Source: Candidatus Melainabacteria bacterium (GTDB lineage: Bacteria > Actinomycetota > Actinomycetes > Mycobacteriales > Pseudonocardiaceae). From it: a stretch of DNA of 64,000 nucleotides. How positions within the stretch are numbered: the stretch's first letter is position 1; each line of letters starts with the position of its first letter. Both the position numbers and the translations under genes were made by a program. Of the stretch, positions 14,248 through 34,687 are shown piece by piece. The stretch spans positions 9,010 to 73,009 of the forward strand of contig CAVWRF010000015.1 in assembly GCA_963757325.1 (NCBI GenBank). Reading direction: 5' to 3'. The notes under the pieces were generated by a model that saw nothing but the letters and a program-made list of their open reading frames with translations, did not search any database and was not told the DNA's origin.

Positions 14248-14262
14248 GCGCCGGGGGACGAG

Positions 14263-15255: not shown

Positions 15256-18200
15256 CCACAGCACAGCGGCGCCAGGTGGCGGCGGACCGGACGGTGTTCC
15301 CGCTGATGGCCGGTCAGGCTGAGATCTGGTACGACGAGCGGTTCTCCGGCGGCACGCCCGCCTACAACTCCGGTGTGTGCGTGCACATCGACGGCCCGCT
15401 GGACGCGGGCGTGCTGGAGGCGTCGGTCCGGCAGTTGGTGGACGAGGCCGAGTGCACGCGGATCCGGTTCGTCGAACAGGACGGCCTGCCCCGGCAGACC
15501 GTGCGACAGCTCCCCACACTGCCGATGGGCTGGCACGACCTGTCCGGCCGGCCGGACCCGGACGCGGCCGCCCGGCGGTGGATCAACGCGGATCTGGTCC
15601 GCCCGTTCTCGATGACCGACTTCCCGCTGATGCGGCTGGCCGCGCTGCGGCTGGGCCCCGAGCGCACCCAGCTCTACCTGAACATCCACCACGCGGTCAG
15701 CGACGGCTTCAGCCATGTCGTGTACTGGCGGCGGTTCGCCGAGATCTACGCCGCGCGCGCCACCGGCGGCGACCCGGGCCGCGGCGCGCTGCCGCCGCTG
15801 CGGCTGCTGATCGAGGAGGAGGAGTCGTACCTGGGGTCCCGGTTCGAGCAGCGGGACAGGGCGTTCTGGCGGGACCGGTTCCCGAAGCCCACCGAGGTGA
15901 CGACGCTGTCCACCCGGTCGCCGGTGGACTCGCTGCCGCGTGAGTTCCTGCGCAGCACCAGCGTGCTGGACGAGCGGATCACCGGCGCGGTGCGCGCCGC
16001 GGCCGCCGGGGCCGGCGTGACCACCGGCGCGCTGCTGATGGCCGCGACATCGTTGTACGTCAACCGGATCACCGGCGCCCCCGACGTGACGCTGACCGTC
16101 GCGGCAGGCGCCCGGATGAGCGCCGCCGCGCGCAAGATCCCCGGCATGACGGCGAACTTCCTGCCGATGACGGTGCGCGTGGACCGTGCCGAGCAGCGGC
16201 CGGACCTGCTCCGGCGGACGTCGGCGGAGCTGGCCGGACTCCTCCGCCACCAGCGGTACCGCGTCGGCGCGATCCGCCGTGATCTCGGCCTGGGGGCCGA
16301 CGACCGGTGGCCGGCAGGGCCGTTCGTGAACATGCTGCCGCTGCTGGTCGCGCTGGACATGGGGCCGTGCGTGGGAACGGTGGAGAACATCACCACCGGT
16401 CTGGTCAGCGACATGATGGTGACCACTGTCGACACGCCGGGCGAGAACCTGCGACTGAACATCAACGGCAACCCCGATCTGTACCACCCGGACGAGGTGT
16501 CCGACCACCTGGCGCGGTTCGGCGCGTTCCTCGGCCGGTTCGCCGGCAGCGCGTCGGACACGCCGGTCGGTGACGTGCCGCTGCTCGGCTCGGTCGAGAT
16601 CGGCCGGTACGACCACATGTCGGCGGGCCCGGTGCGCGAGGACCCGCACCTGAGCGTGCCGGCGGCGATCCGCGCCGTCGCCGCGCAGGACCCGGACGCG
16701 GTCGCGCTGGTCGACGGCCGCGCGGACGACCCGCGCGAGGTGACGTACGGGCAGTTGGTGGCGCGCGCGAACGCGCTGACCCGGCGGCTGCCGGCTGTCG
16801 GGCTGGTCGGCGTGTTGGCCGGACCGGGCGCCGACTTCGTCGTCGGCGTGCTGGGTACGTGGGGTGCCGGCGCGGCGTACGTGCCGCTCGACGTGCGGGC
16901 ACCCGCCGCGCGCACCGCGGCCCTGGTGGCGGACAACGGGATCGGCTGCCTGCTGGTGGACGCGGAACACCGCGAACTGGCGGAGGAGGTCGTCGCGGGG
17001 TCCGATGTGGACATCCTGCTGCTCGCCGACGTCGAGGACGGGGAACTGGCCGCGCTGCCCGACGATCCGGCCGAACTGGCGTACGTGATCTTCACGTCCG
17101 GTTCCACCGGCACGCCGAAGGGCGCGATGGTGCAGCACGGCGGCATGGTGAACCACCTGCGCGCCAAGATCGAGGATCTGCGCCTCGCGTCGACCGACCT
17201 GGTGGTGGCCAACGCGCCGCTCACCTTCGACATCTCCGTGTGGCAGCTCTTCGCGGCGCTGCTGGTCGGCGGCCGGGTGCGGATCGTGCCACGGGAGGTC
17301 GCCGCCGACCCGAACCTGCTGTTCCCGCTGACCGTGCGGGACGGCGGGACGGTGCTGGAGGTGGTGCCGTCGCTGCTGCGCGCCGCGTTGGACTCGTGGG
17401 ACGCGCTGGACGGTGGCCCCCGGCTGCGTGGCCTGCGCTGGCTGCTGGTCACCGGTGAGGCGATGCCGGTCGAGCTGTGCCGTCGGTGGTTCGCGCGCGA
17501 GCCGAAGGTGCCGGTGCTCAACGCGTACGGCCCGACCGAGTGCTCGGACGACGTGACACACGCGGTGCTGACGGCGAAGGACGGCGTTGCCACCACCGCG
17601 CAGCGGCGGGTGCCGATCGGCCGTGCGGTGCGCAACACGGCGCTGTACGTGCTGGGTGACGACCTGTGCGCGGTGCCGCGTGGCGCGATCGGCGAGCTGT
17701 ACGTCGGCGGCTGTGGCGTCGGCCGTGGCTACCTCGGTGACCCGGTGAAGACGTCGGCCACGTTCCTGCCCGACCCGTTCGCCGGCCGGGGAGCGCGGAT
17801 GTACCGCACCGGTGACCGGGTCGTGTGGCGGCCGGACGGCCAGTTGGAGTTCGTGGAACGCCGCGACCACCAGGTGAAGGTGCGCGGCAACCGGATCGAG
17901 CTGGCCGAGGTCGAGGCCGCGATGCACGGGCTGCCTCGGGTGCGCGACGCTGCCGTGGCCGTGTTCGGCGAGTCGGGCAGGCAGCGGCTGATCGGCTACG
18001 TCGTGCCAGCGGGCCCGGCCACGATCGACCTGGAACTGCTGCGCGAACGGCTGGCCGGTGTGCTGCCCGAGTACATGGTGCCCTCGGTCCTCATGACGCT
18101 GCCGGCGCTGCCGCTGACGTCGCACGGCAAGGTGGACCGCAAGGCGCTGCCCGAACCGGAGACGGCGACCGTCACCGCGCGCGAGGGCAGGGGTGCGGAG

Positions 18201-19850
18201 ACGCCGGAGGAGGAACTGCTCTGCCGGCTGCTCGCCGACGCGCTCGGTCTGCCGGTGATCGGGCCGGACGACAACTTCTTCACCCTCGGCGGCGACAGCA
18301 TCATCTCGATCCAGGTGTCCAGCCGCATCCGGCGGGAGGGTCTGCTGGTCACCCCGCAGCAGATCTTCCGGCTCAAGACGCCCGGCGCGATCGCCGCGGC
18401 CGCGAAACCGGTGCGGCCGCTGGCCGTGCCGCGCTCCGAGGACGGTGTCGGCGAGGTCGAGCCGCCGCCGGTCGCCCAGCAGCTACGCGAGGATCTGGCG
18501 CCACTGGGTGCGGACGGCCTGCCGGAGGCCGCTCGCCGCTACGGCCAGTACGTCGTGTTCGAGCTGCCGTCCGATGTGGACGCCGACCGGCTCACGTTCG
18601 CGTTGCAGGCCGTACTCGACCACCACGACGCGCTGCGCATGCGGGTGACCGTGCCGGCGCCGGGGCAGTGGGCGCTGGAGGCGCTGCCGCCGGGTTCGGT
18701 GAAGGCGGCCGACGTGCTCACCGAGACCGATGCGGCGCCGGTACCCGAACTGGCCGCCGCCGCGCAGCGCGGGCTGGACCCGGAGAACGGGATCGTCACG
18801 CGGGTGGTACTGGTGCGCGGTGCGGCTGGCGAGCCGGACCGGTTGCTGTGGCTGGTGAACCACCTGTGCGTCGACGGCGTGTCCTGGCGGGTGCTGGTGC
18901 CGGACCTGCGTGAGGCGTGGCAGTCCGTGCTGGCCGATCAGGAGATCGCGCTGGCCGCCGTCGGCACGTCGTACCGCCGCTGGTGCCGCGCGCTCGGCCG
19001 GAGCGCGGGTTCCGCCGCGCGGCTCGCGGAGTTCCCGGAGTGGCTGGCCGCGGTGCGCGATCCGGGGCCACCACTGGCCGACCGGCCGCTGGACCCGCTG
19101 CGCGACACGTATGCCACCGGGCACTCGCTGCGCCTGGTGCTGCCGCCGGAGATCACCCGGCCGCTGCTCACCTCGACGCCCGCGGACCTGGGCGTCGAGG
19201 TGAACGACGTGCTGCTGACCGCGCTGGGCATCGCCGTCGCCGACTGGCGGCGCCGCAGGGGAGAGCCGGCGGAGCAGGTTCTGGTGGAACTGGAGGGTCA
19301 CGGCCGGGAGCCGATCGCGGAGGAGGACCTTGCCCGCACGGTCGGCTGGTTCACCAGCATCTTCCCGGTGCGGCTGGACGTGTCGGCTGCCGGCGCGGCA
19401 CCGGACCGGGACGACATCTGGGCGGGCGGCACCGCACTGGGCGCGCTCGCCACGGCGAGGCACGCCGTGCCCGACCGAGGTCTGGGCTACGGCCTGCTGC
19501 GCTACCTGAACGCACAGACCGAGACCGCGCTCGCGCGGTTCGCGCCGCCCGAAGTCGGCCTGAACTACCTGGGCTGGTTCACCGCGGGCGCCGGGACGGG
19601 CGCATGGCGGCTGGACGGCGGCAACGCGGTGATCAGCACCGCGACGACCCCGGACATGCCGTTGCGGCACGTGCTGGCGGTCACGCCCGTCACCGAGGAC
19701 CGGCCGGGCGGGCCGTGCCTGGTGGCCGACTGGCTCTGGGCGGGCGAGCTGTTCGCCGACGCCGACGCCGAGGACATCGCGCGCACCTGGTTCCGGGCGC
19801 TGCGCACACTGGTGATCCACAGTGGACACAATGGTGGGGAGACATCGTGA
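15252..19850 (+). CDS. NRPS-1: starter C - A - T - E (module 1)
   Basis: GTGA overlap with the sbnA stop. C domain HHAVSDG. A domain YVIFTSGSTGTPKG, NAYGPTE, YRTGD, PLTSHGKVD (code DIWELTADDK). T domain FFTLGGDSI. E domain NHLCVDGVSWRVL plus ELEGHGRE. Confidence 0.9.
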   Translation: MTTAQRRQVAADRTVFPLMAGQAEIWYDERFSGGTPAYNSGVCVHIDGPLDAGVLEASVRQLVDEAECTRIRFVEQDGLPRQTVRQLPTLPMGWHDLSGRPDPDAAARRWINADLVRPFSMTDFPLMRLAALRLGPERTQLYLNIHHAVSDGFSHVVYWRRFAEIYAARATGGDPGRGALPPLRLLIEEEESYLGSRFEQRDRAFWRDRFPKPTEVTTLSTRSPVDSLPREFLRSTSVLDERITGAVRAAAAGAGVTTGALLMAATSLYVNRITGAPDVTLTVAAGARMSAAARKIPGMTANFLPMTVRVDRAEQRPDLLRRTSAELAGLLRHQRYRVGAIRRDLGLGADDRWPAGPFVNMLPLLVALDMGPCVGTVENITTGLVSDMMVTTVDTPGENLRLNINGNPDLYHPDEVSDHLARFGAFLGRFAGSASDTPVGDVPLLGSVEIGRYDHMSAGPVREDPHLSVPAAIRAVAAQDPDAVALVDGRADDPREVTYGQLVARANALTRRLPAVGLVGVLAGPGADFVVGVLGTWGAGAAYVPLDVRAPAARTAALVADNGIGCLLVDAEHRELAEEVVAGSDVDILLLADVEDGELAALPDDPAELAYVIFTSGSTGTPKGAMVQHGGMVNHLRAKIEDLRLASTDLVVANAPLTFDISVWQLFAALLVGGRVRIVPREVAADPNLLFPLTVRDGGTVLEVVPSLLRAALDSWDALDGGPRLRGLRWLLVTGEAMPVELCRRWFAREPKVPVLNAYGPTECSDDVTHAVLTAKDGVATTAQRRVPIGRAVRNTALYVLGDDLCAVPRGAIGELYVGGCGVGRGYLGDPVKTSATFLPDPFAGRGARMYRTGDRVVWRPDGQLEFVERRDHQVKVRGNRIELAEVEAAMHGLPRVRDAAVAVFGESGRQRLIGYVVPAGPATIDLELLRERLAGVLPEYMVPSVLMTLPALPLTSHGKVDRKALPEPETATVTAREGRGAETPEEELLCRLLADALGLPVIGPDDNFFTLGGDSIISIQVSSRIRREGLLVTPQQIFRLKTPGAIAAAAKPVRPLAVPRSEDGVGEVEPPPVAQQLREDLAPLGADGLPEAARRYGQYVVFELPSDVDADRLTFALQAVLDHHDALRMRVTVPAPGQWALEALPPGSVKAADVLTETDAAPVPELAAAAQRGLDPENGIVTRVVLVRGAAGEPDRLLWLVNHLCVDGVSWRVLVPDLREAWQSVLADQEIALAAVGTSYRRWCRALGRSAGSAARLAEFPEWLAAVRDPGPPLADRPLDPLRDTYATGHSLRLVLPPEITRPLLTSTPADLGVEVNDVLLTALGIAVADWRRRRGEPAEQVLVELEGHGREPIAEEDLARTVGWFTSIFPVRLDVSAAGAAPDRDDIWAGGTALGALATARHAVPDRGLGYGLLRYLNAQTETALARFAPPEVGLNYLGWFTAGAGTGAWRLDGGNAVISTATTPDMPLRHVLAVTPVTEDRPGGPCLVADWLWAGELFADADAEDIARTWFRALRTLVIHSGHNGGETS

Positions 19851-21270
19851 CGCGGTCGGAGAAAGCTGTGACGGGCGACAGGGAACGCGACGTGGCGGAC
19901 GTCGCGCTGACCCCGCCGGTGCAACGGCTGCGGGACCGGACCGGCGTGCTGGACGGACCGGCGCAGCGGCTCGGCGAGTACCTGATCGTGCCGGCGCCGA
20001 AGGGCACGAACCTCGCCGTGCTGACCGAGGCCGTGCGGGCGCTGGTGGACCGGCACGAGGCGTTGCGGCTGTGTCTGGCCGAACCGGTCGAGGGCCTGTG
20101 GTCGGCAGGCGTGCTGCCGCCCGGCGCGGTGCGCGCGGAGTCGTTGGTCAGCAAGGCGCCCCCGAAGGCCGAACCGGCCGAAGTGGCCGCGAAGGCGCGG
20201 GCCCGGCTGGCCGTGCGGGACGGCGTCGTGCTCCAGGCGGTGCTGCTCACCGGACGGCGTGTCCTGGTGCTGGCCCACGAACTGGTCGTCGACGCGGCGT
20301 CCTGGCGGGTGCTCGTCGACGATCTGCTCGCGTGCTGCGCGGACGTCGTCGCGGGCCGTGAGCCGATGGTGCCCGACGTGGCCGTGACCTATCGGGACCG
20401 GGCAGCGGACCTGGCCGGTCAGGCTCGGGCCGCGCGGCGGGTGCGGGAACTCCCGACGTGGACGGAGCAACTCGACCCGGACGCGCGGCTGGTGCCGGGG
20501 GCAGCGCTGGATCCGTTGGTGCACAACGTGTCCGCGCTGCGCCACCACCGGCAGGAGCTGTCCGCCGCCACCAGTTCGGCGTTGCTGGGCGCGCTGCCGG
20601 CGGCGTTCCACGCGCGGACCGAGGACGCGCTGCTGACCGCGCTGGCGCTGGCCGGTTCCGCGCACCGCGGCGAGGCCGAGGCCGGTCGCACGGCCGTGCT
20701 CGTCGAACTGGCCGCGCCGCACGCCGGTGCCGACCGCACGATCGGCCGCTGTGTCACGGGTTTCCCGGTCCGCGTGGACGCCGCCGTGACCTGTGTCGAG
20801 GACCTGGCCGCCGGTGACGCCGATCTGGACGGTGCGGTCAAGCGCGTCAAGGAGCAGGTGCGGGCGCTGCCCGACGGCGGCAGCGGCTACGGCGTGCTGC
20901 GGCACCTCAACCCGCAGACCGGCGGTGTGCTGGCCCGCCGTGGCACGCCGCAGGTGCTGCTGCGCTTCGACGGCGAACTGCCCGCCCCTGTGACCGCCGA
21001 GGCCGACCCGAGGACGCCGGTCAGCCACGTCGTCACCGTGACCGTGACGGTGTGCGACGGCAGGCTGGTCGCGGACTGGGCGTACCTGCCGGATCTGCTG
21101 CCCGGCGGCGGGGAACTGGCCGCCGAGTGGTCGCGGCTGCTGGACCTGCTCGCCGCGCACACCGCGACGCCGCACGCCGGCGGCCGCACGCCCTCGGATC
21201 TGACCGTCTCGACGCTCACCCAGTACGAGATCGAGAACTTCGAGGCCGATCTCGGCCGGCTGCAGGACGT
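19847..21270 (+). other. E* domain: epimerisation-like domain with both catalytic motifs degenerate
   Basis: Motif comparison with the E domain of NRPS-1 immediately upstream (18440-19850). Confidence 0.7.
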
Positions 21271-21442
21271 GCTGTCGCTGTCGCCGCTGCAGAAGGGCAT
21301 GCTGTTCCACGCGGGCATGCACAAGGACGAACTGGACGTCTACCACGTCCAGGTGCTCGCCGACCTGACCGGCCCGCTGGACGCGGGCCGGCTGCGTGCC
21401 GCGGCGGCCGCGCTGCTGGACCGGCACGTGAACCTGCGCGGG
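19847..21442 (+). CDS. NRPS-2, fragment a: degenerate E-like domain (E*) plus the N-terminal part of C2; frame breaks near 21440
   Basis: GTGA overlap with the NRPS-1 stop. E-like fold with [14 protein letters not shown] and VELAAPHAG in place of HHxxxDG and EGHGRE, then [18 protein letters not shown] and [11 protein letters not shown]...[10 protein letters not shown]. Confidence 0.8.
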
Positions 21443-21443
21443 C

Positions 21444-24400
21444 TGCTTCCGCTACAGCGCGACCGGCGAGCAGTTGCAGATCATCCCGGAGTCGGTCGAA
21501 CTGCCCTGGACCGACGTCGACCTGAGCGGCGCGTCAGAGGACGAGCTGGCCGGGTTCGCCGCCGCCGACCGGGACCACGGTGTCGACCTGGCCGTGGCAC
21601 CGCTGATGCGGTTCACGCTGATCCGCACCGGAGCCGACTCGCACCGTCTGTTGTGGACGTTCCACCACATCGTGGCCGACGGCTGGTCCACGCCGATCGT
21701 GATGCGCGAACTGCTGGCCGCCTACCACGCGGGCGCGGGTTCGCTCACCGAGCCGCGTCCGTACCGGGACTACCTGAGCTGGCTGGAGAGCCGGGACGAC
21801 AGGGCCGCCAGGCAGGCGTGGCGGGCCGCGATGTCGGCCATCACCGAGGCGACGCTGATCGCGCCGCACGGCGAACAGACCCCGCCGGTGCGGCCCGAGT
21901 ACGTGTTCGTCGAACTGCCGCAAGCCCTGACGTCCGCCCTCACCGAGTTCGCGCGCGGGCGCGATCTGACCCTGGGCACCGTGATGCACTGCTGCTGGGC
22001 GATCCTGGTCGGCCAGCTCACCGGCAGCAGGGACGTCGTGTTCGGCAGCGTGCAGTCGGGGCGGCCCGCCGACCTGTCCGGTGTGGACGAGATGGTCGGC
22101 ATGTTCGTCAACACGCTGCCGGTGCCGGTGCGGCTGGACCCCTACCGGTCGTTCGCCGAGGTGGCCGCCGGTGTGCAGGACGAGCAACTCGGCCTGACCG
22201 AGCACCAGCACCTCGGCCTGGGCGACATCCAGCAGCTCACCGGTGTCCGCAGGCTGCTGGACACGTCGGTGACCATCCAGAACTACCCGATGGACGTCGC
22301 CGAGCTGAGCGCGATCGTCCCGGACCTCGCGGTCACCGGCATCCGCGCCGAGTTGTCCGGCGAGTACTCGATGGCGCTGCTGGTGCACCCGGGCAGCCGC
22401 ATCCGGCTGCAGTTGGCGTACCGCCCGGACCTGTTCCGCCCCACCGACGCCGAGCGCGTCGCGGAACGGCTGACCGGGCTGCTGGGCACCGTCGTGCACG
22501 ACGCCGACCGGCCGCTGGGCGCGCTCACCACGCTGACCGCCGCGGAGCGGGCCGACATCACCGGCGCGTGGGCGGGTTCGATCGAGCGGCGCAGGGTGTG
22601 CGACGCACCGACGCTGTTCGCCGAGCGTGTCGCCGCCGCGCCGGACGCGCCCGCGCTGAGCTGGACCGGCGGGTCGATGAGCTACGCCGAACTCGACGGG
22701 CGGGCCAACCGGATGGCCCGCGAGATGGTGGCGCGCGGCGCGGGGCCGGACACGATCGTCGCGCTCGTGCTGCCGCGCACGTCCGAACTGCTGGTGTCGG
22801 TGCTGGCCACGCAGAAGGCGGGCGCCGCCTACGTTCCCGTCGACCCGCGGTACCCGGCCGACCGGATCGCGTTCATGCTGGAGGACTCCCGGCCGGCCGT
22901 CGTCGTGTCCACAGTGGATATCGGTGCCGGCCTGCCGGCCACCGGCGCCCGAACGATCCTGGTCGACGACCCGGCCGACACGGCACGCGTCGCGGCACGT
23001 CCCGACGGCGATCTCACCGACGCCGACCGCACCCGGCCGCTGCTGCCGACCGACGCCGCGTACGTGATCTACACGTCCGGCTCGACCGGGCGGCCCAAGG
23101 GCGTCGTCGTGGACCACACCGGATTCACGAAGATGGTGTTCGACCTGATCACGCGGTTCGACGTCGGGCCGGACACCCGGATGCTGCAGTTCGCGCCCTC
23201 CAGCTTCGACGCGTCGATCTGGGAGTGGTCGATGGCGCTGCTCGGCGGCGGCACGCTGGTGCTGACCGACGAACTGAGCAGGCTGCCCGGCCCGGCGCTG
23301 GTCGACCTGATCGCGGAGCAGCGGGTCAACCTGCTGGCCTTCCCGCCCGCGGTGGCCGCCGCGCTGCCCGAGGGCAGCACCCTGCCCGCCGACCTGACCA
23401 TGGTGGTGGCCGGCGAGGCGTGCCAGAAGGAGGTCGTGGCGCGCTGGTCGGACAGCGTCCGGATGTTCAACGGCTACGGCCCGACCGAGACCGTGCTGGC
23501 GGCGACCGCGGAAGGCCCGCTGCACGGCCCGGAACGGCCCGCGATCGGCAGGCCGCTCGGCGCGCACCGGGTCCACCTGCTGGATTCGGCGCTGCGGCCG
23601 GTGCCGGCAGGAGTGACCGGCGAGATCTACGTCAGCGGCGGCCTGGCCCGCGGTTACCTGAACCGGGCCGGTTTCACGGCGACGCGGTTCGTCGCGTCGC
23701 CGTTCGACGCGTCGGGCGAGCGGATGTACCGCACAGGTGACCTGGCGCGCTGGGACGAGCGCGGCGTGCTGCACTACGCCGGCCGCGTCGACGACCAGGT
23801 GAAGCTGCGCGGCTACCGGATCGAACTGGGCGAGGTCGAGGCAGCGCTGCGCGGTGCGCCCGCGGTCGGCGACGCGTCCGTGGTGATCGGCGAGGACCGC
23901 GGCGGCAAGCGGCTGGTCGGCTACGTCGTGCCCGTGCCCGGCGGTGGCCTGCCGGACGTGGATGTGGTGCGCGAACACATCTCCGGTTCGCTGCCCGACT
24001 ACATGGTGCCCGCCGCACTGGTCGTGCTGGAGACGCTGCCGCTGACCCCCAACGGCAAGGTGGACCGCAAGGCGCTGCCCGAACCCGGCGCCGTGGCCCG
24101 CCCGGCCGGCCGGGCGCCCCGGACGCCGCTGGAGGAGACGCTGGCGTTCGTGTTCGCCGACGTGCTCGGCGTCGACTCGATCGGCATCGACGACGACTTC
24201 TTCGCGATGGGCGGCCATTCGCTGCTGGCCACCAGGGTGATCGGCCGGCTGCGGTCGATGCTGAAGCTGGAGGTGCCGATCAGGGCGCTGTTCGAGGCGC
24301 CGACGGTCGCGGGCCTCGCGCCGCGGATCGGTGGCGTGGCAGCGGCCCGGCCACCACTGCGGCCGGCGCCTGCCGGTGAACCGGTCGGGTTGTCGTTCGC

Positions 24401-27400
24401 GCAGCAGCGCCTGTGGTTCCTGGACCGGCTGGAGGACACCGAGGCCGCCGGCACGTACATCGTGCCGATCGTGGTCCGGCTGGCCGAGGCGGCCGACGTG
24501 CCGGCACTGCGCGCGGCACTGGCCGACGTGACGACACGGCACGAGGTGTTGCGGACCGTCTACACCGACGACGGCGGCACGGCCGCGCTGCGCGTGCTCG
24601 ATCCGCCGGCCGAACTGCCGGTCGGCGTCGAACAGGTCGCGGCAGGCGAACTGGACGACGCGCTCGGCGCGCAGGCCGCCGTCGGGCTGGACCTGAACCG
24701 GATGCCGCTGCGCTGCGTACTGTACGAAGTGGACAACGGCGAACGCGTGCTGCTGTTGGTGATCCACCACATCGCGTTCGACGGCGCCTCGATCTCGCCG
24801 CTGGTCCGCGATCTGGGCGTCGCGTACGCGGCGCGGGCCGCCGGGCACGCACCGGACTGGGCGCCCTTGCCCGTGCAGTACTCGGACTTCGCCGCGTGGC
24901 AGCGCGATTTCCTCGGCCGCACGGACGATCCGGACAGTGTCGCCGGGCGGCAGTTGGAGTACTGGCGCGGCACGCTGGCCGGCCTGCCGGAGGCGGTCGA
25001 CGTCACGACCGACCGCCTGCGGCCCGCAGTGGCCCGGTACGAGGGCGAGGAACTGCCGTTCGAGGTCCCGGTGCGGCTGCACCGCGACCTGACGAAGCTG
25101 GCCGGCGAGCTGGGCGTCAGCCTGTTCATGGTGGTGCAGGCCGCGTTCGCGACCCTGCTCACGCAGTTGGGTGCCGGCACGGACGTGCCGATCGGCAGCC
25201 CGGTGTCCGGGCGCGGCGACGAGGCGCTGGAGGATCTGGTCGGTTTCTTCGTGAACACCGTGGTGCTGCGCACCGACACCGGCGGCGACCCGACGTTCGC
25301 CGAACTGCTGAACCGGGTCCGGGAGACCGATCTGGCGGCCTACGCGAACCAGGACCTGCCCTTCGAGCACCTGGTCGAGGCGCTCAACCCGGACCGGTCG
25401 CCGGCCCACCAGCCGCTGTTCGAGCACATGCTGGCGATGACCAGCAGGGATGCCGCGCCGACGACGTCGGCGTTCGGGGCGGTCGAGCCGGTTCCGTTGC
25501 GCAGCGCCAAGTTCGACCTGTCGCTGCTGCTGGACGAGTGCTTCACCGACGGCGAGCCCAGTTCGATGTTCGGTGTGCTGGAGTACCGCACCGACCTGTT
25601 CGCCGGGAGCACGGCGCGGCGCGTCGTGGACCGGTTCCTCACACTGCTGGCGGCCGTGCTCGCCGACCCGCACGCCCGGCTGAGCGCGCTGTCCGCGCTG
25701 CCGGCCGCGGAACTGGAGCACCTGCGTGCGCTGGGCACCGGGCCGGTCGTGGAGCAGCGCTACGAGGGTGTCGTGGCGAGGGTCAGGGCGCACGCCGCGA
25801 TCCGGCCGGACGATGTCGCGATCGTCGACGACGAGGGCACCACCAGCTACGCGCGGCTGGCCGGCAGGGCGAGCGCGCTGTCCCGGCGGCTGGCCGGCCA
25901 CCAGCGCGTCGCCGTGCTGGCACGGCCCGGTGCCGGTCGGGTCGCGGCTGTGCTGGGCGTGCTGGGTGCCGGCGCGGTGTACGTGCCGCTGGACGTGCAC
26001 GCGCCGCGGGACTCGCTCGTCGGCACGCTGCTCGACAGCGGCGCGCGGACGCTCGTCGTCGACGACGACCCCGCCACGCCGATGCGGTGGGCCGATGGGG
26101 TCGAGGTGGTCCGGCTGGGCGATGCCGCCGATCCGGTGGCCCGGCTCGTGCCGGACGTGGACGACCCGGACTCGCCGGTCTCCCCGTCCGGACCGACGCG
26201 CACCGCACTGGTCGACCGGCTGCTGGCCAAGGTCGAGGAGCTGGGGCTCACGTCCGCGGACCGGTTGCTGTACAACGGTTCGCTGTGGCAGCTAGTGGCG
26301 CCGTTGCTGGCCGGCGGCGCCGTGGTGTTCCCTACCGGCGAGCCGTTGGGCGACATCACGGTGCTGCCGCTGGGACCTGCCGCGCTGTCCGCCTTGCTGG
26401 ACGACGCCGTGCTGGACGACGCCGCGCTGGACGCGGGGCGGCTGCGCCGGGTGGTGGTCACCGGGGAACCGCCGGCACCGGATCTGTGTGCCAGGTGGCT
26501 GTCCCGGTTCCCTGGCGTGCCGCTGCTCACCGGCTGTGCCGACGTCACGTCGGCCGTGATCCGCACGCCGCCGCCTGCCGCCACGCGGGTGCCGGTCGGC
26601 AGGCCGGTCCGCAACACCACGCTGTCGGTGCTGGGCGCCGATCAGCGGCCGGTGCCGTGCGGAGTGCCCGGTGAGCTGTACGTCGACGGTGTCGGCGGGA
26701 CCGGTGAACTGGTCCGCTGGGGCGCCGAGGGAGAGCTGGAGTCGCTGGGCCGGATCGACGAGCAGGCGGCGGTCCGCGGGTTCCGGGTCGAGCGGGTCGA
26801 GGTCGAGACCGCGCTGCGCACGCTGCCGTACGTACGGGACGCGGCCGTGCGGGTGGAGGGCCGGGACGGTGACACGTGGTTGTCCGGCTACGTCGTGCCG
26901 GCACCGGGTTCGACGGTGCCGGACACGGCGGCGATGCGGGCGGCGCTCGCCGGGACGTTGCCCGATCACCTGGTGCCATCCGCCGTGCTGGTGCTCGACT
27001 CGCTGCCGCTGACCGCCGACGGAATGGTCGACCGGGCGGCGCTGCCGCCGATCGGGCCGACAGCCGCGCCGGCGGGGCGGCAGCCGCGCACGCCGGTGGA
27101 ACGGTTGCTGTGCGGTGTGTTCGCCGACGTATTGGGCCGTGCCGAGATCGGCATCGACGACGACTTCTTCAAGCTGGGCGGGCATTCGCTGCTGGCGATC
27201 TTCGCGCTGGGCAGGGTCCGTGCCGAACTCGGTGTCGACCTGCCGGTGCGGGCGCTGTTCGAGGCGTCCACGCCTGCCGCGCTGGCCGCGCTGCTGCCCG
27301 ACGCGGGCACGGTGGACCGGCCGCCGTTGCGGCCCGCGCCGCCGCTGGCCGGCGGTGAGCGGTGGCCGCTGTCGTACGCGCAGCGCAGGCTGTGGTTCCT

Positions 27401-30077
27401 CAACAGGATGGCCGAGGGCGACACCGGCACCTACAGCGTCCCGATGGCGGTGCGCTACTCGGGGGTGCCCGATCCGGCCGCGTTCGAGGCGGCGCTGGGT
27501 GACGTCGTGGCACGCCACCAGGTGCTGCACACGGTGTATCCGCAGGACGCGGACGGCGTGCCGCACCAGGTGCCGGTGCCGGAGTTCCGGCCGCGGCTGC
27601 GGGTGCTCGACCTGCCTGCCGCCGACCTCGCCGCCGAACTGGCGCGCGAGGTGGACCGCGGCTTCGACGTGCGGTCCGAGTGCCAGGTGCGGGCCACGCT
27701 GTACCGGCTGGACGACGGCGACTCCGTGTCGCTGCTGGTGTTCCACCACATCGCGCTGGACGGTGTGTCACTCGGCCCGCTGCGCGGGCAGCTCGTCGAC
27801 GCGTACACCGCACGGCTGGCCGGCAACGCGCCGGACTGGGCGCCGGAACCGTTGCAGTACAAGGACTTCGCGGTGTGGCAGCGGGACATGTTCGGTTCCG
27901 GGCGGGACCCGGGCGGCCCGCTGGCCACGCAGTTGGAGCAGTGGCGCGAGGAACTGGCCGAGCTGCCCGACGAACTGGAGCTGCCGCGCGACTTCGCGCG
28001 GCCCGCGGTCAGCGGACACACCGGTGACATGGTCCGCTTCGATCTGGACGCCGATCTGCACCGCGGCCTGGCCGAGCTGGCCCAGCGGCACAACGCGACG
28101 CTGTTCATGGTGGTGCAGGCCGCGGTGGCCGCGCTGCTCACGAAACTGGGTGCCGGCACGGACATCCCGCTGGGCAGCACCGTGGCGGGGCGGGACGACG
28201 AGGCCCTGCACGACATGGTCGGGTTCTTCGTGAACACGCTCGTGCTGCGCACCGACACCGGTGGCGACCCGAGTTTCGCCGAACTGCTGGGCAGGGTGCG
28301 GGAAACCGATCTGGCCGCCTACACACGGCAGGACGTGCCGTTCGAGTTCCTCGTCGAGGCGCTCAACCCGGCGCGGTCGCTGGCGCGGCACCCGCTGTTC
28401 CAGGTGATCGTGCAGTTCACCCACGACGACGGCGAAACCGTCGCCGCCCTGCCCGGCCTGGAGTGCGCCGAGGAACCGCTGTACACCACGCGGCCCAAGG
28501 TGGACCTCGCCTTCGACCTGGCCGAGCGGCGGTCGGCAGGTGAGCCGGACGGCATCGCGGGGGTCCTGGTCTACAGCGGTGACCTGTTCACGCGGGACTC
28601 CGCACGACTGATCGGCGAGCGGCTGACGCTGCTGCTGCGTGCGGTCACCGAGCGGCCGGCGGAGCCGCTGAGCGGGATCGACGTGCTGGAACCGGCCGAG
28701 CGGGACGCGATCCTGGTGCGGCGCAACGACACCACCGTCGCCGTGCCGGACGAACTGCTGCCAGGACTGGTCGCCGCTTCCGTGCGCCGCAACGCCGATC
28801 TGATCGCGCTGCGCGGCACCACGGAGGCGCTCACGTACCGCGAACTGGACGAGCGGGCCGGCCGGTTGGCCGCGACGCTGCTGGCGAAGGGCGCCGGGCC
28901 GGAGACCGTGGTCGGCATCGCGTTGCCGCGCGTGCCGGATCTGGTGGTGGCCGCGCTCGCGGTGACGCGGGCCGGCGCCCAGTACCTGCCGCTGGACCCC
29001 GAGCACCCCGCCGACCGCATCCGCTACATGCTCGCCGACGCCCGGCCGCTGCTGGTGATCACCGACTCGGCGACGTCGGTCGCGCTGCCCGGCGCTGACA
29101 TGCCGCTGCTGCTGCTGGAGGACGTGCCGGCCACGGGCGCCACGGCGCCGTCGGTGCCTGCCGGGCTGGACCCGGAGCACCCGGCTTACACGATCTACAC
29201 GTCGGGTTCGACCGGCAGGCCCAAGGGTGTCGTCGTGCCGCACGGCGCGCTGCGCAACCTGTTGGCCGACATGCGCGACCGGCTCGCGGTCCGGCCGGGG
29301 GAGCGGTTCCTCGCGGCCACCACGTTCGGCTTCGACATGGCGAACCTGGAACTGCTGGTGCCGCTGCTGGCCGGTGCCGAGGTGGTGCTGGCCGACCGGG
29401 CGGCGGTGCGGGACACGCAGGCGCTGGCCGCGATGCTGCTCGCCGAGCGGATCGACGTCCTGCAGGCCACACCGAGCCTCTGGCAGGCGCTGCTGGACGT
29501 GGACGCGAACGCCTTGCGTGGGCTCAAGGTGGTCACCGGCGGCGAGGCGGTCGGCGAATCGCTCGCCGCGGGCCTCGCCGCGGCGGCCCGCTCGGTGCTC
29601 AACGTCTACGGCCCGACGGAGACCACGGTCTGGTCGACGTCGTCCGAAGTGGACACCGAGCGGGCCGGCCCGCCGGCGATCGGCCTGCCGATCGCGAACA
29701 CCCGGGTGTACGTGCTGGACGCGAGCCTGCGGCCGGTGCCGGACCGGGTGCTGGGCGAGCTGTACATCGCCGGTGACGGCCTGGCCCGCGGCTACCACGA
29801 CCGGCCCGGCCTGACGTCGGAACGCTTCACCGCCGACCCGTACGGTCCGCCCGGTGCCCGGATGTACCGCACCGGCGACCTGGTCCGCTGGGGCCACGAC
29901 GGCATCCTGGAGTACGTCGGCCGCCGGGACCACCAGGTCAAGATCCGCGGTTACCGGATCGAACTGGGCGAGGTCGAGGCCGCGCTGCGGACGCTGCCGG
30001 ATGTCAGGGACGCGCTCGTCACCGTCGACGGTGGACGGTCGCGGCTGCTGGGCTATCTGGTGCCGGTACCGGGCACC
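21444..30077 (+). CDS. NRPS-2, fragment b: rest of C2 - A2 - T2 - C3 - A3* - T3 - C4 - most of A4
   Basis: Continues C2 in another frame ([16 protein letters not shown]...[10 protein letters not shown]). A2 has [30 protein letters not shown] (code DAWAVAGLAK). T2 has GGHSL. C3 has HHIAFDG. A3* is degenerate. T3 has GGHSL. C4 has HHIALDG. A4 has [26 protein letters not shown] (code DMLQVGVVWK). Confidence 0.9.
25740..27040 (+). other. A3*: adenylation-like domain lacking all core catalytic motifs
   Basis: [13 protein letters not shown] replaces TSGSTGxPKG; YNGSLW replaces FDxSxW; LTGCADVTS replaces NxYGPTE; GELVRWG replaces YRTGD; PLTADGMVD replaces PLTPNGKVD. Confidence 0.8.
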
Positions 30078-30079
30078 CG

Positions 30080-31338
30080 ACCGACCCGACCCGGCTGCGC
30101 GCACAGTTGGCCGAATGGCTGCCGGAGTACCTGCGGCCCGCCACGCTGACCGTGCTGGACGCGTGGCCGCTGACGCCCAACGGCAAGGTGGACCGGTCGA
30201 AGCTGCCGGTGCCGGACACGGCCGGCACCGACCAGCGTGCGCCGGAAACCGTGCTGGAGGAACTGCTCTGCGGCGTGTTCGCCGACGCGCTCGGCCTGCG
30301 CGAGGTCGGCGTGCTGGACGACTTCTTCGAACTGGGCGGACACTCGCTGCTCGCGCCGGGATTGATCGGGCGCGCCGTGCGGGCCGGGCTGCGACTGGAC
30401 ATCGCCGACCTGTTCACCCACCGCACTGCAGCCGGCCTGGCCGCGGTCGCGGGCCGGCGGCAGGCGCCCGAACAGGCCGCGGCGTGGCGGGGCGAGGCGA
30501 TGGGCAGGGTGTTCGACGACGCGGCGGGCATCGGCGAACTGGATCCGGTGGCACCCGTGCTGCCGATCCGGCCGGACGGCGATCTCGCGCCGTTGTTCTT
30601 CGTGCACAGCGGTGTCGGGTTCGCACTGCCCTACATCGGTCTCGCCAGGCACCTGGAATCCGGCCACCCGGTGTACGGCCTGCAGTCGCCCGCACTGTCC
30701 GGCGATGGCAGGCTGCCCGACAGCGTCGCCGAACTGGCCGACGGGTACCTGGCCCGCATCCGCGAGATCCAGCCGGCCGGCCCGTACCACCTGTTCGGCT
30801 GGTCGTTCGGCGGCCTCGTGGTGCACGAACTCGCCGTCCGGCTGCGGGAGGCGGGCGAGAACGTCGCGCTGGTGGTCAACATGGACGGCTATCCCGAGCA
30901 CGACCAGCCCGCCGATCCGCGCACCGAGTCGGAGATGCTGGCCGGCGTCCTGGAAGTGATCGGGCACGACAGGGCCGGGTTCGAGGGCCGCGAACTCACC
31001 CGGACGACGTGCTCGCCGTGCTGCGTGAGGACGATCATCCGCTGCTCGCGCTGGGCGAGGACAGGGTGCGCCGCATCCTGGCGCTGTCCGACCGGCACGG
31101 GACGCTGGTGCGGCGGTTCACACCCCGGCACTACGACGGCGAACTGCACCTGGTGGTCGCCACGGCCGAACGTGAGGACGCGGCTGAAGCCGCGCTGGTC
31201 GACCGCTGGCGGCCGTTCGTCGGGCGGCTGACCCGGCACGGTCTCGACGTCGGGCACGAGTACCTGATGCACCCGGAGCCGCAGGCATGGCTGGCGGCGC
31301 TGATCGACGAACTGCTCAAGGGCGGCGCGGCCCGATGA
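30080..31338 (+). CDS. NRPS-2, fragment c: end of A4 - T4 - TE (a further frame break near 31000)
   Basis: [39 protein letters not shown], then T4 FFELGGHSL and [11 protein letters not shown]...FGWSFGG. After about 31000 the TE continues in another frame ([15 protein letters not shown]...HLVVAT...GHEYLM) to TGA 31338. Confidence 0.85.
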
Positions 31339-32250: not shown

Positions 32251-33480
32251 ATGACAGCGGAACCGGTCAGCACACCGGCCGGTCCGCGGGTACCGGATCT
32301 GGCCGATCCGCGCACGTTCGTCGACGAGGACGTGCGGACGATGTGGCGGCGGCTGCGGGCCGAGGCACCGGTGTACTGGAACCCGGCCACCGACGACCGG
32401 CCCGGTTTCTGGTCCGTGACGCGCTACGCGGACGTGCTCGCGGTCTACAAGGACAACACGCGGTTCACGTCGGAGAAGGGCAACGTGCTCTCCACGCTGC
32501 TGCGGGGCGGCGACTCGGCGGGCGGCAAGATGCTCGCCGTCACCGACGGCCCACGGCACCGCGAGACGCGCAAGCTGATGCTGAAGTCGTTCTCGCCGCG
32601 CGTACTGGAGCACATCGGCCAGCTTGTGCGCAGGCGCACCCGGCGGCTGGTCGCGGAGGTGGTGGCGCGCGGCGAGGCGGACTTCGCCACCGACGTCGCC
32701 GACCACATCCCGATCAACACCATCGGCGACCTGATGGACATCCCGGTCGCCGACCGGGGCAAGCTCGTCGACTGGAACAACCGCACGCTGTCGCGCTACG
32801 ACGAGGGCGACTCGCAGCTTGAGGAGTGGCTGGCGCGCAACGAGATCCTGCTGTACTTCGGTGAACTGGCCGCCCGGCGCCGCGCGGCGCCGGGCGAGGA
32901 CGTGATCAGCGCTCTGGCCACCGGCCTGGTCGGCGGTGAGCCGCTGTCCGAGGACGAGATCGTCTTCAACTGCTACAGCCTGGTGCTGGGTGCGGACGAG
33001 TCCAGCCGGATGTCGTCGATCGGCGCGGTGATCGCGTTCACCGAGCACCCCGACCAGTGGCGGGCGCTGAAGGACGGCGAGGTCGGTGTCGCGGACGCCA
33101 CGGAGGAGGTACTGCGCTGGACCACGCCGGCCATGCACTTCGGTCGGCGGGCGCTGGAGGACGTGCCACTGGGCGGCCGGGTGATCAGGGCAGGCGACGT
33201 GGTCGCGCTGTGGAACAGTTCGGCCAACTTCGACGAGGACGCGTTCGACGACCCGGACCGGTTCGACCTGGGCCGCAAACCCAACCGGCACGTCGCGTTC
33301 GGCCACGGCCCGCATTTCTGTATCGGCGCGTTTCTCGGTCGCTCCCACGTTTCCGCCGTGCTGGAGGCATTGCGCGACCAGGTCGCCGAAATCGAGCTGC
33401 GCGGTGAGCCGCGGCGCCTGTATTCCAATTTCGTGCACGGTTATCGCGGCCTGCCGGTCGCATTCACCCCGGAACGTTGA
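32251..33480 (+). CDS. Cytochrome P450
   Basis: 409 aa from ATG 32251. I-helix [15 protein letters not shown] (ExxR) and the heme loop [14 protein letters not shown]. Confidence 0.9.
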
Positions 33481-33505: not shown

Positions 33506-33721
33506 TTGAGCAGCAACCCGTTCGACGACGAGAACGGCACCTTCCTGGTGCTGACCAACCCGGACGAGCAGTACTCGCTGTGGCCGTCGTTCGCGCAGCT
33601 CCCGGACGGCTGGACCGTGGTGCGTGAGCCGGGCACCAGGGCCGAGGCGCTGGAGTACGTGGAGACGCACTGGACCGACATGCGGCCCAGGTCGCTGCGG
33701 GATCGCGCGGCACGGCTGTGA
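33506..33721 (+). CDS. MbtH-like protein
   Basis: [38 protein letters not shown] carries the three MbtH Trp positions. TTG start follows AGGAGGAG. Confidence 0.85.
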
Positions 33722-34684: not shown

Positions 34685-34687
34685 AAA

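What the first reader, a model, noticed from the sequence alone, without database searches (positions are those of the whole stretch)
25740..27040. Module 3 keeps an adenylation-like domain that has lost every catalytic signature (A*)
Compared with A2 and A4 in the same polypeptide: the A3 core [11 protein letters not shown] reads [13 protein letters not shown]; the amino-group anchor FD(A/M)xxW reads YNGSLW (Asp235 to Asn); NxYGPTE reads LTGCADVTS; YRTGD reads GELVRWG; and the A10 Lys is Met ([12 protein letters not shown] 27024-27026). The segment is also visibly shorter than A2 and A4. The flanking C3 (HHIAFDG) and T3 (FFKLGGHSL) look intact, so T3 must be loaded by something else. A retained but dead A domain, rather than an A-less module, suggests a structural or docking role.
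Basis: seen in the sequence. Interest (0 to 1): 0.8.

Follow-up and report, generated by a model that had tools for sequence, protein, structure and literature searches.

The report
Dead adenylation domain kept inside NRPS
One module of a Streptomyces-type peptide assembly line carries an amino-acid-activating domain that has lost its catalytic parts, a known kind of arrangement in which a separate enzyme probably loads that module; relatives catch the same domain at different stages of decay.

Summary
Window 25695-27110 encodes an adenylation (A) domain remnant, A3*. It still scores as AMP-binding (116.6 bits, against 226-289 for A1, A2 and A4). The P-loop, the Asp235 segment, NxYGP and the stretch up to YR of YRTGD are deleted; the TGD aspartate is Glu and the A10 Lys is Met. 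No other frame restores the motifs.

A3* is 75 codons shorter than its orthologue in Streptomyces sp. MZ04, in at least seven in-frame blocks. The flanking C3, T3 and C4 keep their motifs and evolve under purifying selection.

Ten orthologous loci, about seven distinct clusters, all keep a full-length A3. It looks canonical in three and is independently mutated in the others. Its dN/dS is about 0.6-1.0, so A3 is dispensable across the family and the window holds its most eroded copy.

At least three relatives carry a conserved free-standing A domain with an Asp-like code. The window lacks it. It has an operon of a stand-alone A-T (Asn-like code) and an NcmC-family Cys-Asp-His hydrolase. That gene pair also follows another NRPS whose last module holds an A-domain relic.

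Loading of T3 in trans is therefore likely but unproven. A structural or docking role is weakly supported. This is a new member of the known cystobactamid, albicidin and kutzneride kind. Four single-base frameshifts in the cluster remain unexplained.

The parts
25695..27110 (+). A3*, the degenerate adenylation domain of module 3. The core remnant runs to about 26710 and the C-terminal subdomain covers 26711-27110.
   Evidence: Pfam AMP-binding 116.6 bits in two stretches plus AMP-binding_C. Motif lesions and deletions against paralogues and orthologues. AlphaFold model pLDDT 80, with low confidence at residues 135-155 (26133-26195, P-loop remnant) and 272-280 (26544-26570, A5 remnant).
24401..25694 (+). 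C3 condensation domain (LCL type), HHIAFDG at 24765-24785
   Evidence: Pfam Condensation; motif located; dN/dS about 0.4 against orthologues.
27111..27380 (+). T3 carrier domain, FFKLGGHSL at 27165-27191
   Evidence: The GGHSL core is invariant in the window and all ten orthologous loci. dN/dS is 0.26-0.35 in window pairs and about 0.31 on the window branch.
27381..28649 (+). C4 condensation domain (HHIALDG)
   Evidence: Translation, Pfam, dN/dS 0.22-0.31.
19847..31338 (+). NRPS2: E-like* - C2-A2-T2 - C3-A3*-T3 - C4-A4-T4-TE. It is read in four frames because of single-base indels near 21439/21444, 30071/30074 and about 30990.
   Evidence: tblastn of the Streptomyces sp. MZ04 orthologue (3918 aa) against the window; local alignments; Pfam.
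15252..19850 (+). NRPS1: starter C - A1 - T1 - E1. A1 is the closest paralogue of A3* (46% identity; code read by hand DIWELTADDK).
   Evidence: Pfam, alignment, tblastn, dN/dS 0.25-0.35 in window pairs.
3821..5569 (-). Stand-alone A-T didomain protein with all core motifs intact. Code read by hand is DMTKVGEVGK (Asn-like, 9 of 10 to DATKVGEVGK as recalled).
   Evidence: Pfam AMP-binding 258.8 bits plus PP-binding; TIGR01733 378.9 bits; sequence; start GTG 5569 with GAGGA upstream, 30 nt after the stop of the upstream gene.
5599..6450 (-). NcmC/TrdC-family alpha/beta-hydrolase-fold protein ('DC-like') with GYCAG, LFDPE and VGHDDLL aligned to the Cys-Asp-His residues of NcmC. Candidate aminoacyl shuttle, or a true Dieckmann cyclase.
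   Evidence: phmmer against PDB: 6E6T NcmC, E = 6.1e-40, 248 aligned residues. Weak Thioesterase and DLH hits over the nucleophile elbow.
32251..33480 (+). Cytochrome P450, present in every fetched locus that covers this position
   Evidence: tblastn 84% to the MZ04 P450; Pfam p450.
33506..33694 (+). MbtH-like protein
   Evidence: tblastn 75% to the MZ04 MbtH protein.
35577..36599 (+). O-methyltransferase (Methyltransf_2)
   Evidence: Pfam, tblastn 85%.
11256..12860 (-). Flavin-dependent tryptophan halogenase
   Evidence: Pfam Trp_halogenase 526 bits; 70-91% identical to proteins that sources name tryptophan 6- or 7-halogenase.
12928..15255 (+). sbnB-like (12928-14247) and sbnA-like (14263-15255) genes for 2,3-diaminopropionate supply
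   Evidence: NCBIfam TIGR03944 at 412 bits and TIGR03945 at 388 bits, both above their cut-offs.
7807..11202 (+). ACP (7807-8082), KS (8110-9333), CLF-like (9407-10378) and FabZ-like dehydratase (10375-11202), which supply the acyl starter
   Evidence: ORF list, Pfam and NCBIfam, synteny with S. fumanus.

Best explanation
A3* is the eroded relic of a once functional adenylation domain of the Dab/Dap type, a paralogue of A1. It can no longer make an aminoacyl-adenylate. It persists because it lies in frame between C3 and T3, and everything downstream (T3-C4-A4-T4-TE) must still be translated. Module 3 is still used. T3 is aminoacylated in trans, C3 joins the acyl-dipeptide to that residue, and C4 passes it on. 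In the related clusters the likely loader is a conserved free-standing A domain with an Asp-like code. In the window that gene is absent. The likely loader here is the operon at 3821-6450 on the minus strand. Its stand-alone A-T activates an Asn-like amino acid on its own carrier. The adjacent NcmC-family Cys-Asp-His enzyme either moves that amino acid to T3 by thioester exchange, or the A-T docks directly. What is shown: the loss of catalytic motifs, the in-frame erosion, the purifying selection on neighbouring domains, and the gene content of the window and its relatives. What is inferred: who loads T3, the shuttle role of the NcmC homologue, and the substrates.
For: Dead domain: motifs A3, A4, A5 and A7 are deleted or changed and the A10 Lys is Met; the Pfam score is halved and split. 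Relic of a working domain: three orthologues (MZ04 L013, NPDC097640 L014, metagenome L016) keep FTSGSTGxPKA, VDIS, NCYGPTE, Y(R/H)TGD and NGKVDR at the same place. Erosion under a frame constraint: A3* is 225 nt shorter than in L013, in at least seven separate in-frame gap blocks. Module still in use: the C3 and C4 motifs are intact in the window and in P0041/L013, and the T3 core is invariant in every locus checked. Window-branch dN/dS is about 0.72 in the A3 core, against 0.16 (A2), 0.25 (C4), 0.30 (A4) and 0.31 (T3). Family-wide dispensability: independent lesions in L021/22, L024, L026-28 and L031, and A3 dN/dS of 0.6-1.0. Loader in relatives: a 504-aa A domain without T (TIGR01733 368 bits, dN/dS 0.16-0.25) sits 4-10 kb downstream of NRPS2 in S. 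aurantiacus, S. fumanus and NPDC097640. It is not in the window (best tblastn match 39%). Loader in the window: the A-T and DC-like genes are 30 nt apart, and neither has a homologue in the fetched parts of the relatives' clusters. The same gene pair, with an identical A-domain code, lies directly after an NRPS whose last module is C, an A6-A7 relic of about 70 aa, T and TE (L034). Proven precedent: cystobactamid, where the inactive CysK A3 is served by the Asn-loading CysH through the shuttle CysB (PMC7966384).
Against: No experiment exists. The neighbour of the A-T is a homologue of a Dieckmann cyclase, not of the known SyrC/CmaE/CysB shuttles. In L033 the same pair lies next to a type I PKS, which fits tetramic acid formation. 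In L034 the NcmC homologue lacks the Asp and His of the triad. The Asp-type free-standing A domain could lie elsewhere in this genome, outside the window. A1 has the specificity class of the ancestral A3 and could load T3. The upstream flank is known completely for only two relatives. The A-domain codes were read by hand against a GrsA segment recalled from memory, which does reproduce DAWTIAAICK. NRPS2 carries three apparent frameshifts, so the assembly line may be inactive in this strain.
Confidence: 0.5

Rival explanations
1. T3 is loaded by A1 of NRPS1 acting in trans. A1 and the ancestral A3 are paralogues with the same specificity class, so A3 became redundant and decays. The stand-alone A-T would then do something else.
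For: A3* is closest to A1 (46% against 37-39% for A2 and A4). The hand-read codes are DIWELTADDK for A1 and DIWEATCDDK for A3 of L013. A distant fused homologue, P0030, has intact A1 and A3 of the same type. A3 decays in clusters that have no A-T. From my own knowledge, one A domain serves several carrier domains in yersiniabactin and viomycin synthetases.
Against: At least three relatives keep a separate free-standing A domain under purifying selection that has no other obvious partner. Nothing here shows that A1 can reach T3 on another polypeptide.
Confidence: 0.2
2. NRPS2, and perhaps the whole cluster, is a pseudogene in this strain. A3* is just part of general decay and has no current mechanism.
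For: There are three frame changes in NRPS2 and one in the ABC ATPase gene relative to orthologues with continuous genes.
Against: All other NRPS domains show dN/dS of 0.16-0.47 on the window branch, like their orthologues, so any inactivation is recent compared with the erosion of A3. At least two of the four frameshifts are single-base changes in G or C runs (GGG at about 21440; CCCC to CCC at about 30990), as sequencing errors would be. A3 itself lost 75 codons without breaking the frame.
Confidence: 0.15
3. The A-T and NcmC-like operon is a tetramic-acid module, or the remnant of one, unrelated to T3. The A-T holds an Asn-like residue that is N-acylated and released by Dieckmann cyclisation.
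For: NcmC homology at E = 6e-40 with Cys, Asp and His aligned. The family is known as trans-acting Dieckmann cyclases (PMC5466765 and PMC10956176, listed). The L033 pair sits beside a type I PKS.
Against: Nothing near the pair in the window looks able to N-acylate the carrier-bound residue: the fully surveyed flanks hold two SARP regulators and a Na+/H+ antiporter, with 1-595 not searched. In L034 the pair follows an NRPS module that lacks a working A domain and has its own TE.
Confidence: 0.15
4. Module 3 is skipped and T3 is never loaded.
For: A3 is dispensable in the whole family.
Against: T3 keeps GGHSL in every locus checked, and C3 and C4 keep HHxxxDG in the window and in P0041/L013. All three remain under purifying selection (dN/dS 0.2-0.5 in most comparisons), unlike A3.
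Confidence: 0.05

Closest known systems
Cystobactamid synthetase: inactive A3 of CysK module 3, stand-alone CysH (Asn) and shuttle CysB (PMC7966384)
   Same: A full module (C-A-T) whose A domain lacks the A10 lysine and does not load. A stand-alone NRPS protein activates Asn on its own carrier. A small hydrolase-fold protein is encoded in the cluster. An MbtH protein, an oxygenase and an O-methyltransferase are also present.
   Different: CysK A3 is full length, while A3* has lost 75 codons and five motifs. CysH carries an AMDH domain between A and T, and the window A-T (582 aa) has no insert. CysB resembles SyrC and CmaE, whereas the window protein is an NcmC/TrdC homologue. Here the oxygenase is a P450, not a 2-oxoglutarate enzyme. 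Nothing in the window has been tested biochemically.
Albicidin: inactive A domain in the main assembly line, complemented by the stand-alone A-T Alb04, which prefers Asn (review PMC8949500)
   Same: An A domain is present but non-functional because of poor core motifs. It is complemented in trans by a separate A-T whose preferred substrate is Asn.
   Different: Alb04 has a 342-aa extension. The organism is a proteobacterium and the scaffold is a PKS/NRPS of aminobenzoates.
Kutzneride KtzH with its truncated A* and the free-standing A domain KtzN (own knowledge: Fujimori 2007, Strieker 2009; not read here)
   Same: A shortened A-domain remnant is kept between C and T. A free-standing A domain for an acidic amino acid loads that carrier. 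This matches the related clusters, which carry the 504-aa Asp-type A domain.
   Different: In the window the free-standing A domain is missing and an A-T is present instead. As I recall it, KtzH A* is far shorter.
Syringomycin SyrE/SyrB1/SyrC and WS9326-type clusters: an A-less C-T module, a stand-alone A-T and a shuttle (PMC8949500; PMC12532209)
   Same: A carrier domain in the main line is served by a separate A-T through a thioester-exchanging hydrolase-fold enzyme. WS9326-type clusters also use a type II KS/CLF/ACP set for the acyl starter.
   Different: Those modules have no A domain at all. Their shuttles are SyrC-like or type II thioesterase-like proteins.
TrdC/SlgL/NcmC Dieckmann cyclases (PDB 6E6T; PMC5466765 and PMC10956176)
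   Same: The protein at 5599-6450 is a clear sequence homologue with the Cys, Asp and His positions kept. It sits next to an NRPS carrier protein.
   Different: No PKS-NRPS hybrid ending in C-A-T without a release domain is present in the window. The A-T has no C domain.

Membership tests
NRPS adenylation domain (ANL superfamily, PF00501 + PF13193) | Sequence match to the family profiles above the curated cut-off | tested here: met
   AMP-binding 116.6 bits (cut-off 29.9) and AMP-binding_C 36.9 bits (cut-off 24.5).
NRPS adenylation domain (ANL superfamily, PF00501 + PF13193) | Catalytic core motifs: A3 P-loop, A4 Asp235, A5 NxYGPTE, A7 Y(R/K)TGD, A10 Lys | tested here: not met
   GRPKAVAVH, PVTVDI, NCYGP and the 29 residues up to RMYR are deleted. 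TGD has become TGE and the A10 Lys is Met.
NRPS adenylation domain (ANL superfamily, PF00501 + PF13193) | Overall two-subdomain fold | tested here: inconclusive
   AlphaFold pLDDT 80, pTM 0.73. Foldseek top hits are NRPS A domains with query TM-scores of 0.6-0.76. The input alignment was made of intact A domains, which biases the model towards their fold.
Inactive in-line A domain complemented in trans (cystobactamid/albicidin kind) | A domain without catalytic residues in a module whose C and T domains are intact | tested here: met
Inactive in-line A domain complemented in trans (cystobactamid/albicidin kind) | Stand-alone A-T protein encoded in the same cluster | tested here: met
   Gene at 3821-5569, minus strand, with all motifs intact.
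Inactive in-line A domain complemented in trans (cystobactamid/albicidin kind) | Shuttle protein of the SyrC/CmaE/CysB type | tested here: inconclusive
   The adjacent protein has a GxCxG nucleophile elbow, but its only clear relative is NcmC. No SyrC, CmaE or CysB sequence was on hand for comparison.
Inactive in-line A domain complemented in trans (cystobactamid/albicidin kind) | AMDH/ANH-like insert between A and T of the stand-alone module | tested here: not met
   The protein is 582 aa. Pfam finds AMP-binding, AMP-binding_C and PP-binding with no room for an insert.
Inactive in-line A domain complemented in trans (cystobactamid/albicidin kind) | Demonstrated transfer of the amino acid to the in-line T domain | not testable with these tools
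   Needs intact-protein mass spectrometry, as in PMC7966384.
Kutzneride-type A* with a free-standing A domain | Free-standing A domain without T encoded near the cluster | tested here: not met
   Present in relatives (L032 15034-16548, L021, L014). No orthologue in the 64-kb window (best tblastn match 39%).
TrdC/SlgL/NcmC Dieckmann cyclase (for the protein at 5599-6450) | Sequence homology with the Cys-Asp-His triad kept | tested here: met
   6E6T, E = 6.1e-40. GYCAG, LFDPE and VGHDDLL align with GFCAG, VFDPE and VHHADLL.
TrdC/SlgL/NcmC Dieckmann cyclase (for the protein at 5599-6450) | Partner PKS-NRPS ending in a C-A-T module that presents a beta-ketoacyl-aminoacyl thioester | tested here: not met
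   No type I PKS and no C domain lie next to the A-T in the window. A PKS is present beside the pair in L033.

The most novel reading that the evidence does not exclude
A portable two-gene cassette, made of an NcmC/TrdC-fold Cys enzyme and an Asn-type A-T, serves as a trans-loading unit for NRPS modules whose own A domain is decaying. The 'Dieckmann cyclase' fold would here act as a carrier-to-carrier aminoacyl shuttle. In this lineage the cassette would have replaced the family's Asp-type free-standing A domain and changed residue 3 from Asp to Asn. The BGC family would then offer a natural series of stages by which C-A-T modules turn into A-less C-T modules.
Probability: 0.25. Interest if true: 0.7.

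Novelty: new member of a known kind. Interest (0 to 1): 0.5.

Why it matters
Automated predictors read one residue per A domain. Here they would either drop residue 3 or assign it wrongly. The comparative series may matter more than this single case. It runs from canonical copies, through point-mutated full-length copies, to a deletion-ridden copy, and to a 70-aa relic in an unrelated cluster. It shows how an in-line A domain is lost once a trans loader exists, with only the reading frame protected. That bears on the origin of A-less modules. It also suggests that the A domain between C and T can be shortened without destroying a module, which is useful for NRPS engineering. If the NcmC-like protein proves to be a shuttle, a family now annotated only as Dieckmann cyclases gains a second function.

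Tried and rejected
A word-indexed protein search with A3* returned only unrelated A domains of 28-47% identity and no long NRPS.

A genome-collection scan with A3* peptides found only unrelated A domains of at most 38% identity.

The source genome could not be identified. Exact look-ups of window proteins found no contig on record.

A metagenome scan with the NcmC-like protein found nothing.

Literature searches for a product of this BGC family found none. The family appears uncharacterised, but I cannot exclude a paper outside the library.

I first took the protein at 5599-6450 for a SyrC-like transferase because of its GxCxG motif. The PDB search showed that it is an NcmC homologue, so the shuttle role is now only a hypothesis.

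A frameshift artefact was rejected as the cause of A3*. No other frame carries the motifs, and single-base errors cannot remove 225 nt in in-frame blocks.

Misassembly between A-domain repeats was rejected. A3* is only 37-46% identical to the other A domains of the window and is collinear with its orthologues on both sides.

The fine placement of gaps in the DNA alignment of 26050-26700 is unreliable, because identity there is only 45-62%. Only the sums per gap block were used.

Full report
**Setting**

The window is high-G+C actinomycete DNA (66-74% G+C). It carries a lipopeptide-type NRPS cluster, listed here from left to right.

- A SARP regulator (2897-3808).
- A stand-alone A-T (3821-5569, minus strand).
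- A 283-aa hydrolase-fold protein (5599-6450, minus strand).
- A second SARP regulator.
- ACP, KS, CLF-like and FabZ-like genes (7807-11202).
- A tryptophan halogenase (11256-12860, minus strand).
- sbnB-like and sbnA-like genes (12928-15255).
- NRPS1: starter C, A1, T1, E1.
- NRPS2: a degenerate E-like domain, then C2-A2-T2, C3-A3*-T3, C4-A4-T4-TE.
- An ABC-2 permease, a P450, an MbtH protein, an ABC ATPase, an O-methyltransferase and an ABC/FtsX pair.

This map rests.

**The observation**

The Met codon ATG lies at 27024-27026. The two other frames hold no A-domain motifs.

Pfam still recognises the segment as AMP-binding, but only at 116.6 bits and in two stretches (one aligned to profile 219-377). 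The N-terminal half scanned alone matches profile 2-112. A1, A2 and A4 score 226-289 bits in single full-length matches.

Alignment with the paralogues and orthologues shows that the lesions are mostly deletions, not substitutions.

- P-loop: [15 protein letters not shown] is reduced to SPSGPT.
- Asp235 segment: PVTVDI is gone.
- A5: NCYGP is gone and TEC has become TGC.
- Between A6 and A7: 29 residues are gone, including RMYR.
- A7: TGD has become TGE.
- A8: QVKVRG has become QAAVRG.
- A10: Lys has become Met.

The Asp is deleted.

**Orthologues**

An exhaustive HMMER search returned P0041 (3918 aa), a collinear orthologue of NRPS2 with a canonical A3 and no frame changes. Its contig belongs to Streptomyces sp. 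MZ04 (locus L013). It is about 82% identical to the window in DNA from 14254 to 41641. The exception is window 26071-26700, inside A3, where BLAST loses the alignment.

Through the ABC-2 permease and the halogenase I fetched further family members.

- Streptomyces sp. NPDC097640: L014.
- A soil metagenome contig, the closest relative: L016.
- S. fumanus: L019 and L031, plus L032 from a second, fragmented assembly carrying the identical permease.
- S. aurantiacus: L021, L022, L029, L030.
- Streptomyces sp. NPDC005876 and near-identical records: L026-L028.
- A further JGI metagenome contig: L024.

In every locus that holds the whole gene, NRPS2 is called at 3915-3929 aa. The segment that measures 505 aa in the window measures 575-582 aa in all ten loci examined.

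**A3 is decaying across the family**

The motif table shows three states.

- L013, L014 and L016 look canonical: FTSGSTGxPKA, VDIS, NCYGPTE, Y(R/H)TGD, NGKVDR.
- S. aurantiacus has LTSAATG-PRA, GPAE and an A10 Lys changed to Thr.
- L024 has ATATAAGRPA, Asp235 changed to Gly, and A10 Lys changed to Thr.
- The NPDC005876 group and S. fumanus have TSG(T/A)TGxPKA, YGLAE and RLHRTGD. Asp235 is changed to Glu in the NPDC005876 group.

By synonymous distance on C4+A4, the window is the most divergent member and L016 is next. The others form a tighter group. Canonical and mutated copies are interspersed, and the lesions differ between lineages. The decay is therefore repeated and independent.

Nei-Gojobori estimates give A3 a dN/dS of 0.6-1.0 among the mutated copies. 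Even between the two canonical copies L013 and L014 it is 0.60-0.64 for the core and the C-terminal subdomain. A2, C4 and A4 give 0.16-0.47 in the same pairs.

On the window branch, by three-taxon subtraction, the A3 core runs at about 0.72. The N-terminal part runs at about 0.47 and the C-terminal subdomain at about 0.34. For comparison, A2 gives 0.16, C4 0.25, A4 0.30 and T3 0.31.

The T3 core FFxLGGHSL is invariant in every locus checked. C3 and C4 keep HHxxxDG in the window and in P0041/L013.

The conclusion is that module 3 is in use but its own A domain is not needed. The window holds the most advanced stage of a family-wide loss.

**Frame constraint**

Against L013 the window lacks 225 nt, or 75 codons. 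The loss is spread over at least seven gap blocks separated by recognisably homologous in-frame stretches. If indels fell in any phase at random, seven in-frame blocks would have a probability near (1/3)^7, about 5e-4. The erosion therefore happened while translation through to the TE domain was under selection.

This supports the idea that the relic is kept because it cannot simply be dropped. It gives little support to a sequence-specific docking role.

The AlphaFold model keeps an A-domain-like scaffold (pLDDT 80, pTM 0.73). Confidence is low at the P-loop remnant and the A5 remnant. Foldseek returns NRPS A domains with query TM-scores of 0.6-0.76. The input alignment consisted of intact A domains, so the model says little about real stability.

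**Who loads T3**

Three relatives carry a gene for a 504-aa A domain without a carrier: S. aurantiacus, S. fumanus (seen in the fragmented assembly L032) and NPDC097640. It lies 4-10 kb downstream of NRPS2. It scores 368 bits on TIGR01733 (cut-off 317). It evolves at dN/dS 0.16-0.25. Its hand-read code is DLTKLGHVGK, which is Asp-like. This matches the kutzneride pattern of a truncated A* served by a free-standing A domain, which I cite from my own knowledge.

The window has no orthologue of that gene. Synteny with the relatives ends after the FtsX gene.

The window has instead, at its left edge, an operon that has no homologue in the fetched parts of the relatives' clusters. Those parts include the whole upstream flank in S. 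fumanus and S. aurantiacus. The operon encodes the 283-aa protein and, 30 nt further on, the A-T. The A-T code reads DMTKVGEVGK, one residue away from the Asn code DATKVGEVGK as I recall it.

The 283-aa protein is a clear homologue of the Dieckmann cyclase NcmC (PDB 6E6T, E = 6e-40), with the Cys, Asp and His positions kept.

The same gene pair occurs in two metagenome contigs, and its A-domain code is identical in both.

- In L034 it directly follows an NRPS whose last module is a C domain, an A6-A7 relic of about 70 aa (RVYVLD...PGEIVV...LKRTGRRGRW), a T domain and a TE domain.
- In L033 it sits beside a type I PKS.

The L034 context is a second, independent pairing of this cassette with a module that has lost its A domain. 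That is the best evidence here for trans loading. The L033 context, together with the NcmC homology, keeps a tetramic-acid role alive. In L034 the NcmC homologue also lacks the Asp and His of the triad.

**Comparison with known systems**

A retained but inactive in-line A domain served in trans is established. In cystobactamid biosynthesis, CysK A3 lacks the A10 lysine and does not load Asn. CysH loads Asn, and CysB shuttles it to T3. This was shown by intact-protein mass spectrometry (PMC7966384). Albicidin is read the same way, with the Asn-preferring Alb04 (PMC8949500).

Syringomycin and WS9326-type clusters use A-less C-T modules with a stand-alone A-T and a shuttle.

The window is a new member of this kind. 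It differs in three respects: the depth of erosion of the A domain, the absence of an AMDH insert in the A-T, and an NcmC-family protein as the candidate shuttle.

**Caveats**

NRPS2 is read in four frames, and the ABC ATPase gene in two, relative to orthologues whose genes are continuous. At least two of the four indels are single bases in G or C runs. Eight other orthologous genes, and four well-defined genes outside the cluster, show no break. I cannot tell sequencing error from recent inactivation. Either way, the low dN/dS of the other domains shows that A3 eroded while the assembly line was in use.

The substrate codes were read by hand against a GrsA segment recalled from memory, which does reproduce the known code DAWTIAAICK. 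No product is known for this family.

**Verdict**

The case is a new member of a known kind, and the comparative decay series gives it moderate interest.

Noticed in passing
window 19847-21439 (start of NRPS2) and 18230-19850 (end of NRPS1): NRPS1 ends in an E domain (NHLCVDGVSW). NRPS2 begins with a second E-like domain whose active-site motif is degenerate ([11 protein letters not shown]). The tandem is conserved in orthologue P0041, while the distant fused homologue P0030 has a single E. The second copy could be a docking domain or a P450-recruiting X-like domain.
   Followed up: partly
window about 21440, 30072, 30990 (NRPS2) and about 33950 (ABC ATPase): Four single-base indels relative to orthologues whose genes are continuous. 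At least two lie in G or C runs (GGG; CCCC to CCC). They could be sequencing errors or recent pseudogenisation.
   Followed up: partly
window 5599-6450 (-); L033 9143-9940; L034 9153-9986: An NcmC/TrdC-family 'Dieckmann cyclase' homologue forms a conserved gene pair with a stand-alone A-T of code DMTKVGEVGK in three unrelated contexts. One context has no PKS and holds an NRPS module reduced to C, an A relic, T and TE.
   Followed up: partly
L032 15034-16548; L021 20100-20819; L014 20458-20819: Related clusters carry a conserved free-standing A domain without a carrier (504 aa, Asp-like code DLTKLGHVGK, dN/dS 0.16-0.25). It is missing from the window.
   Followed up: yes
window 12928-14247; L030 16720-17787: The sbnB-like gene lies between the halogenase and sbnA in the window. 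In S. aurantiacus it lies beyond the SARP gene. It was not seen in the fetched parts of the S. fumanus or MZ04 clusters, so the gene order of this family is fluid.
   Followed up: partly
window 596-2275 (-); L030 11660-12967; L032 18184-19431: A Na+/H+ antiporter gene travels with the cluster in several genomes. It lies inside the cluster in S. aurantiacus and at an edge in the window and in L032.
   Followed up: no
window 34748-35323 (-): A short ORF with high third-position G+C lies between the ABC ATPase and O-methyltransferase genes. L016 has a flavin reductase at the same position, the likely partner of the halogenase. It was not scanned on its own: a longer same-strand reading (34653-35489), possibly in another frame, gave no Pfam hit.
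   Followed up: no
window 9407-11202: The CLF-like ORF aligns with the S. fumanus CLF only over residues 39-184. The FabZ-like ORF is 275 aa here against 148 aa in S. fumanus. A further frame change in this stretch is possible.
   Followed up: no
L053 5745-6938: A P450 that is 67% identical to the window's P450 lies directly after an NRPS that contains a 45% homologue of the A-T, with a halogenase nearby. This hints that the P450 acts on a carrier-bound Asn- or Asp-type residue.
   Followed up: no
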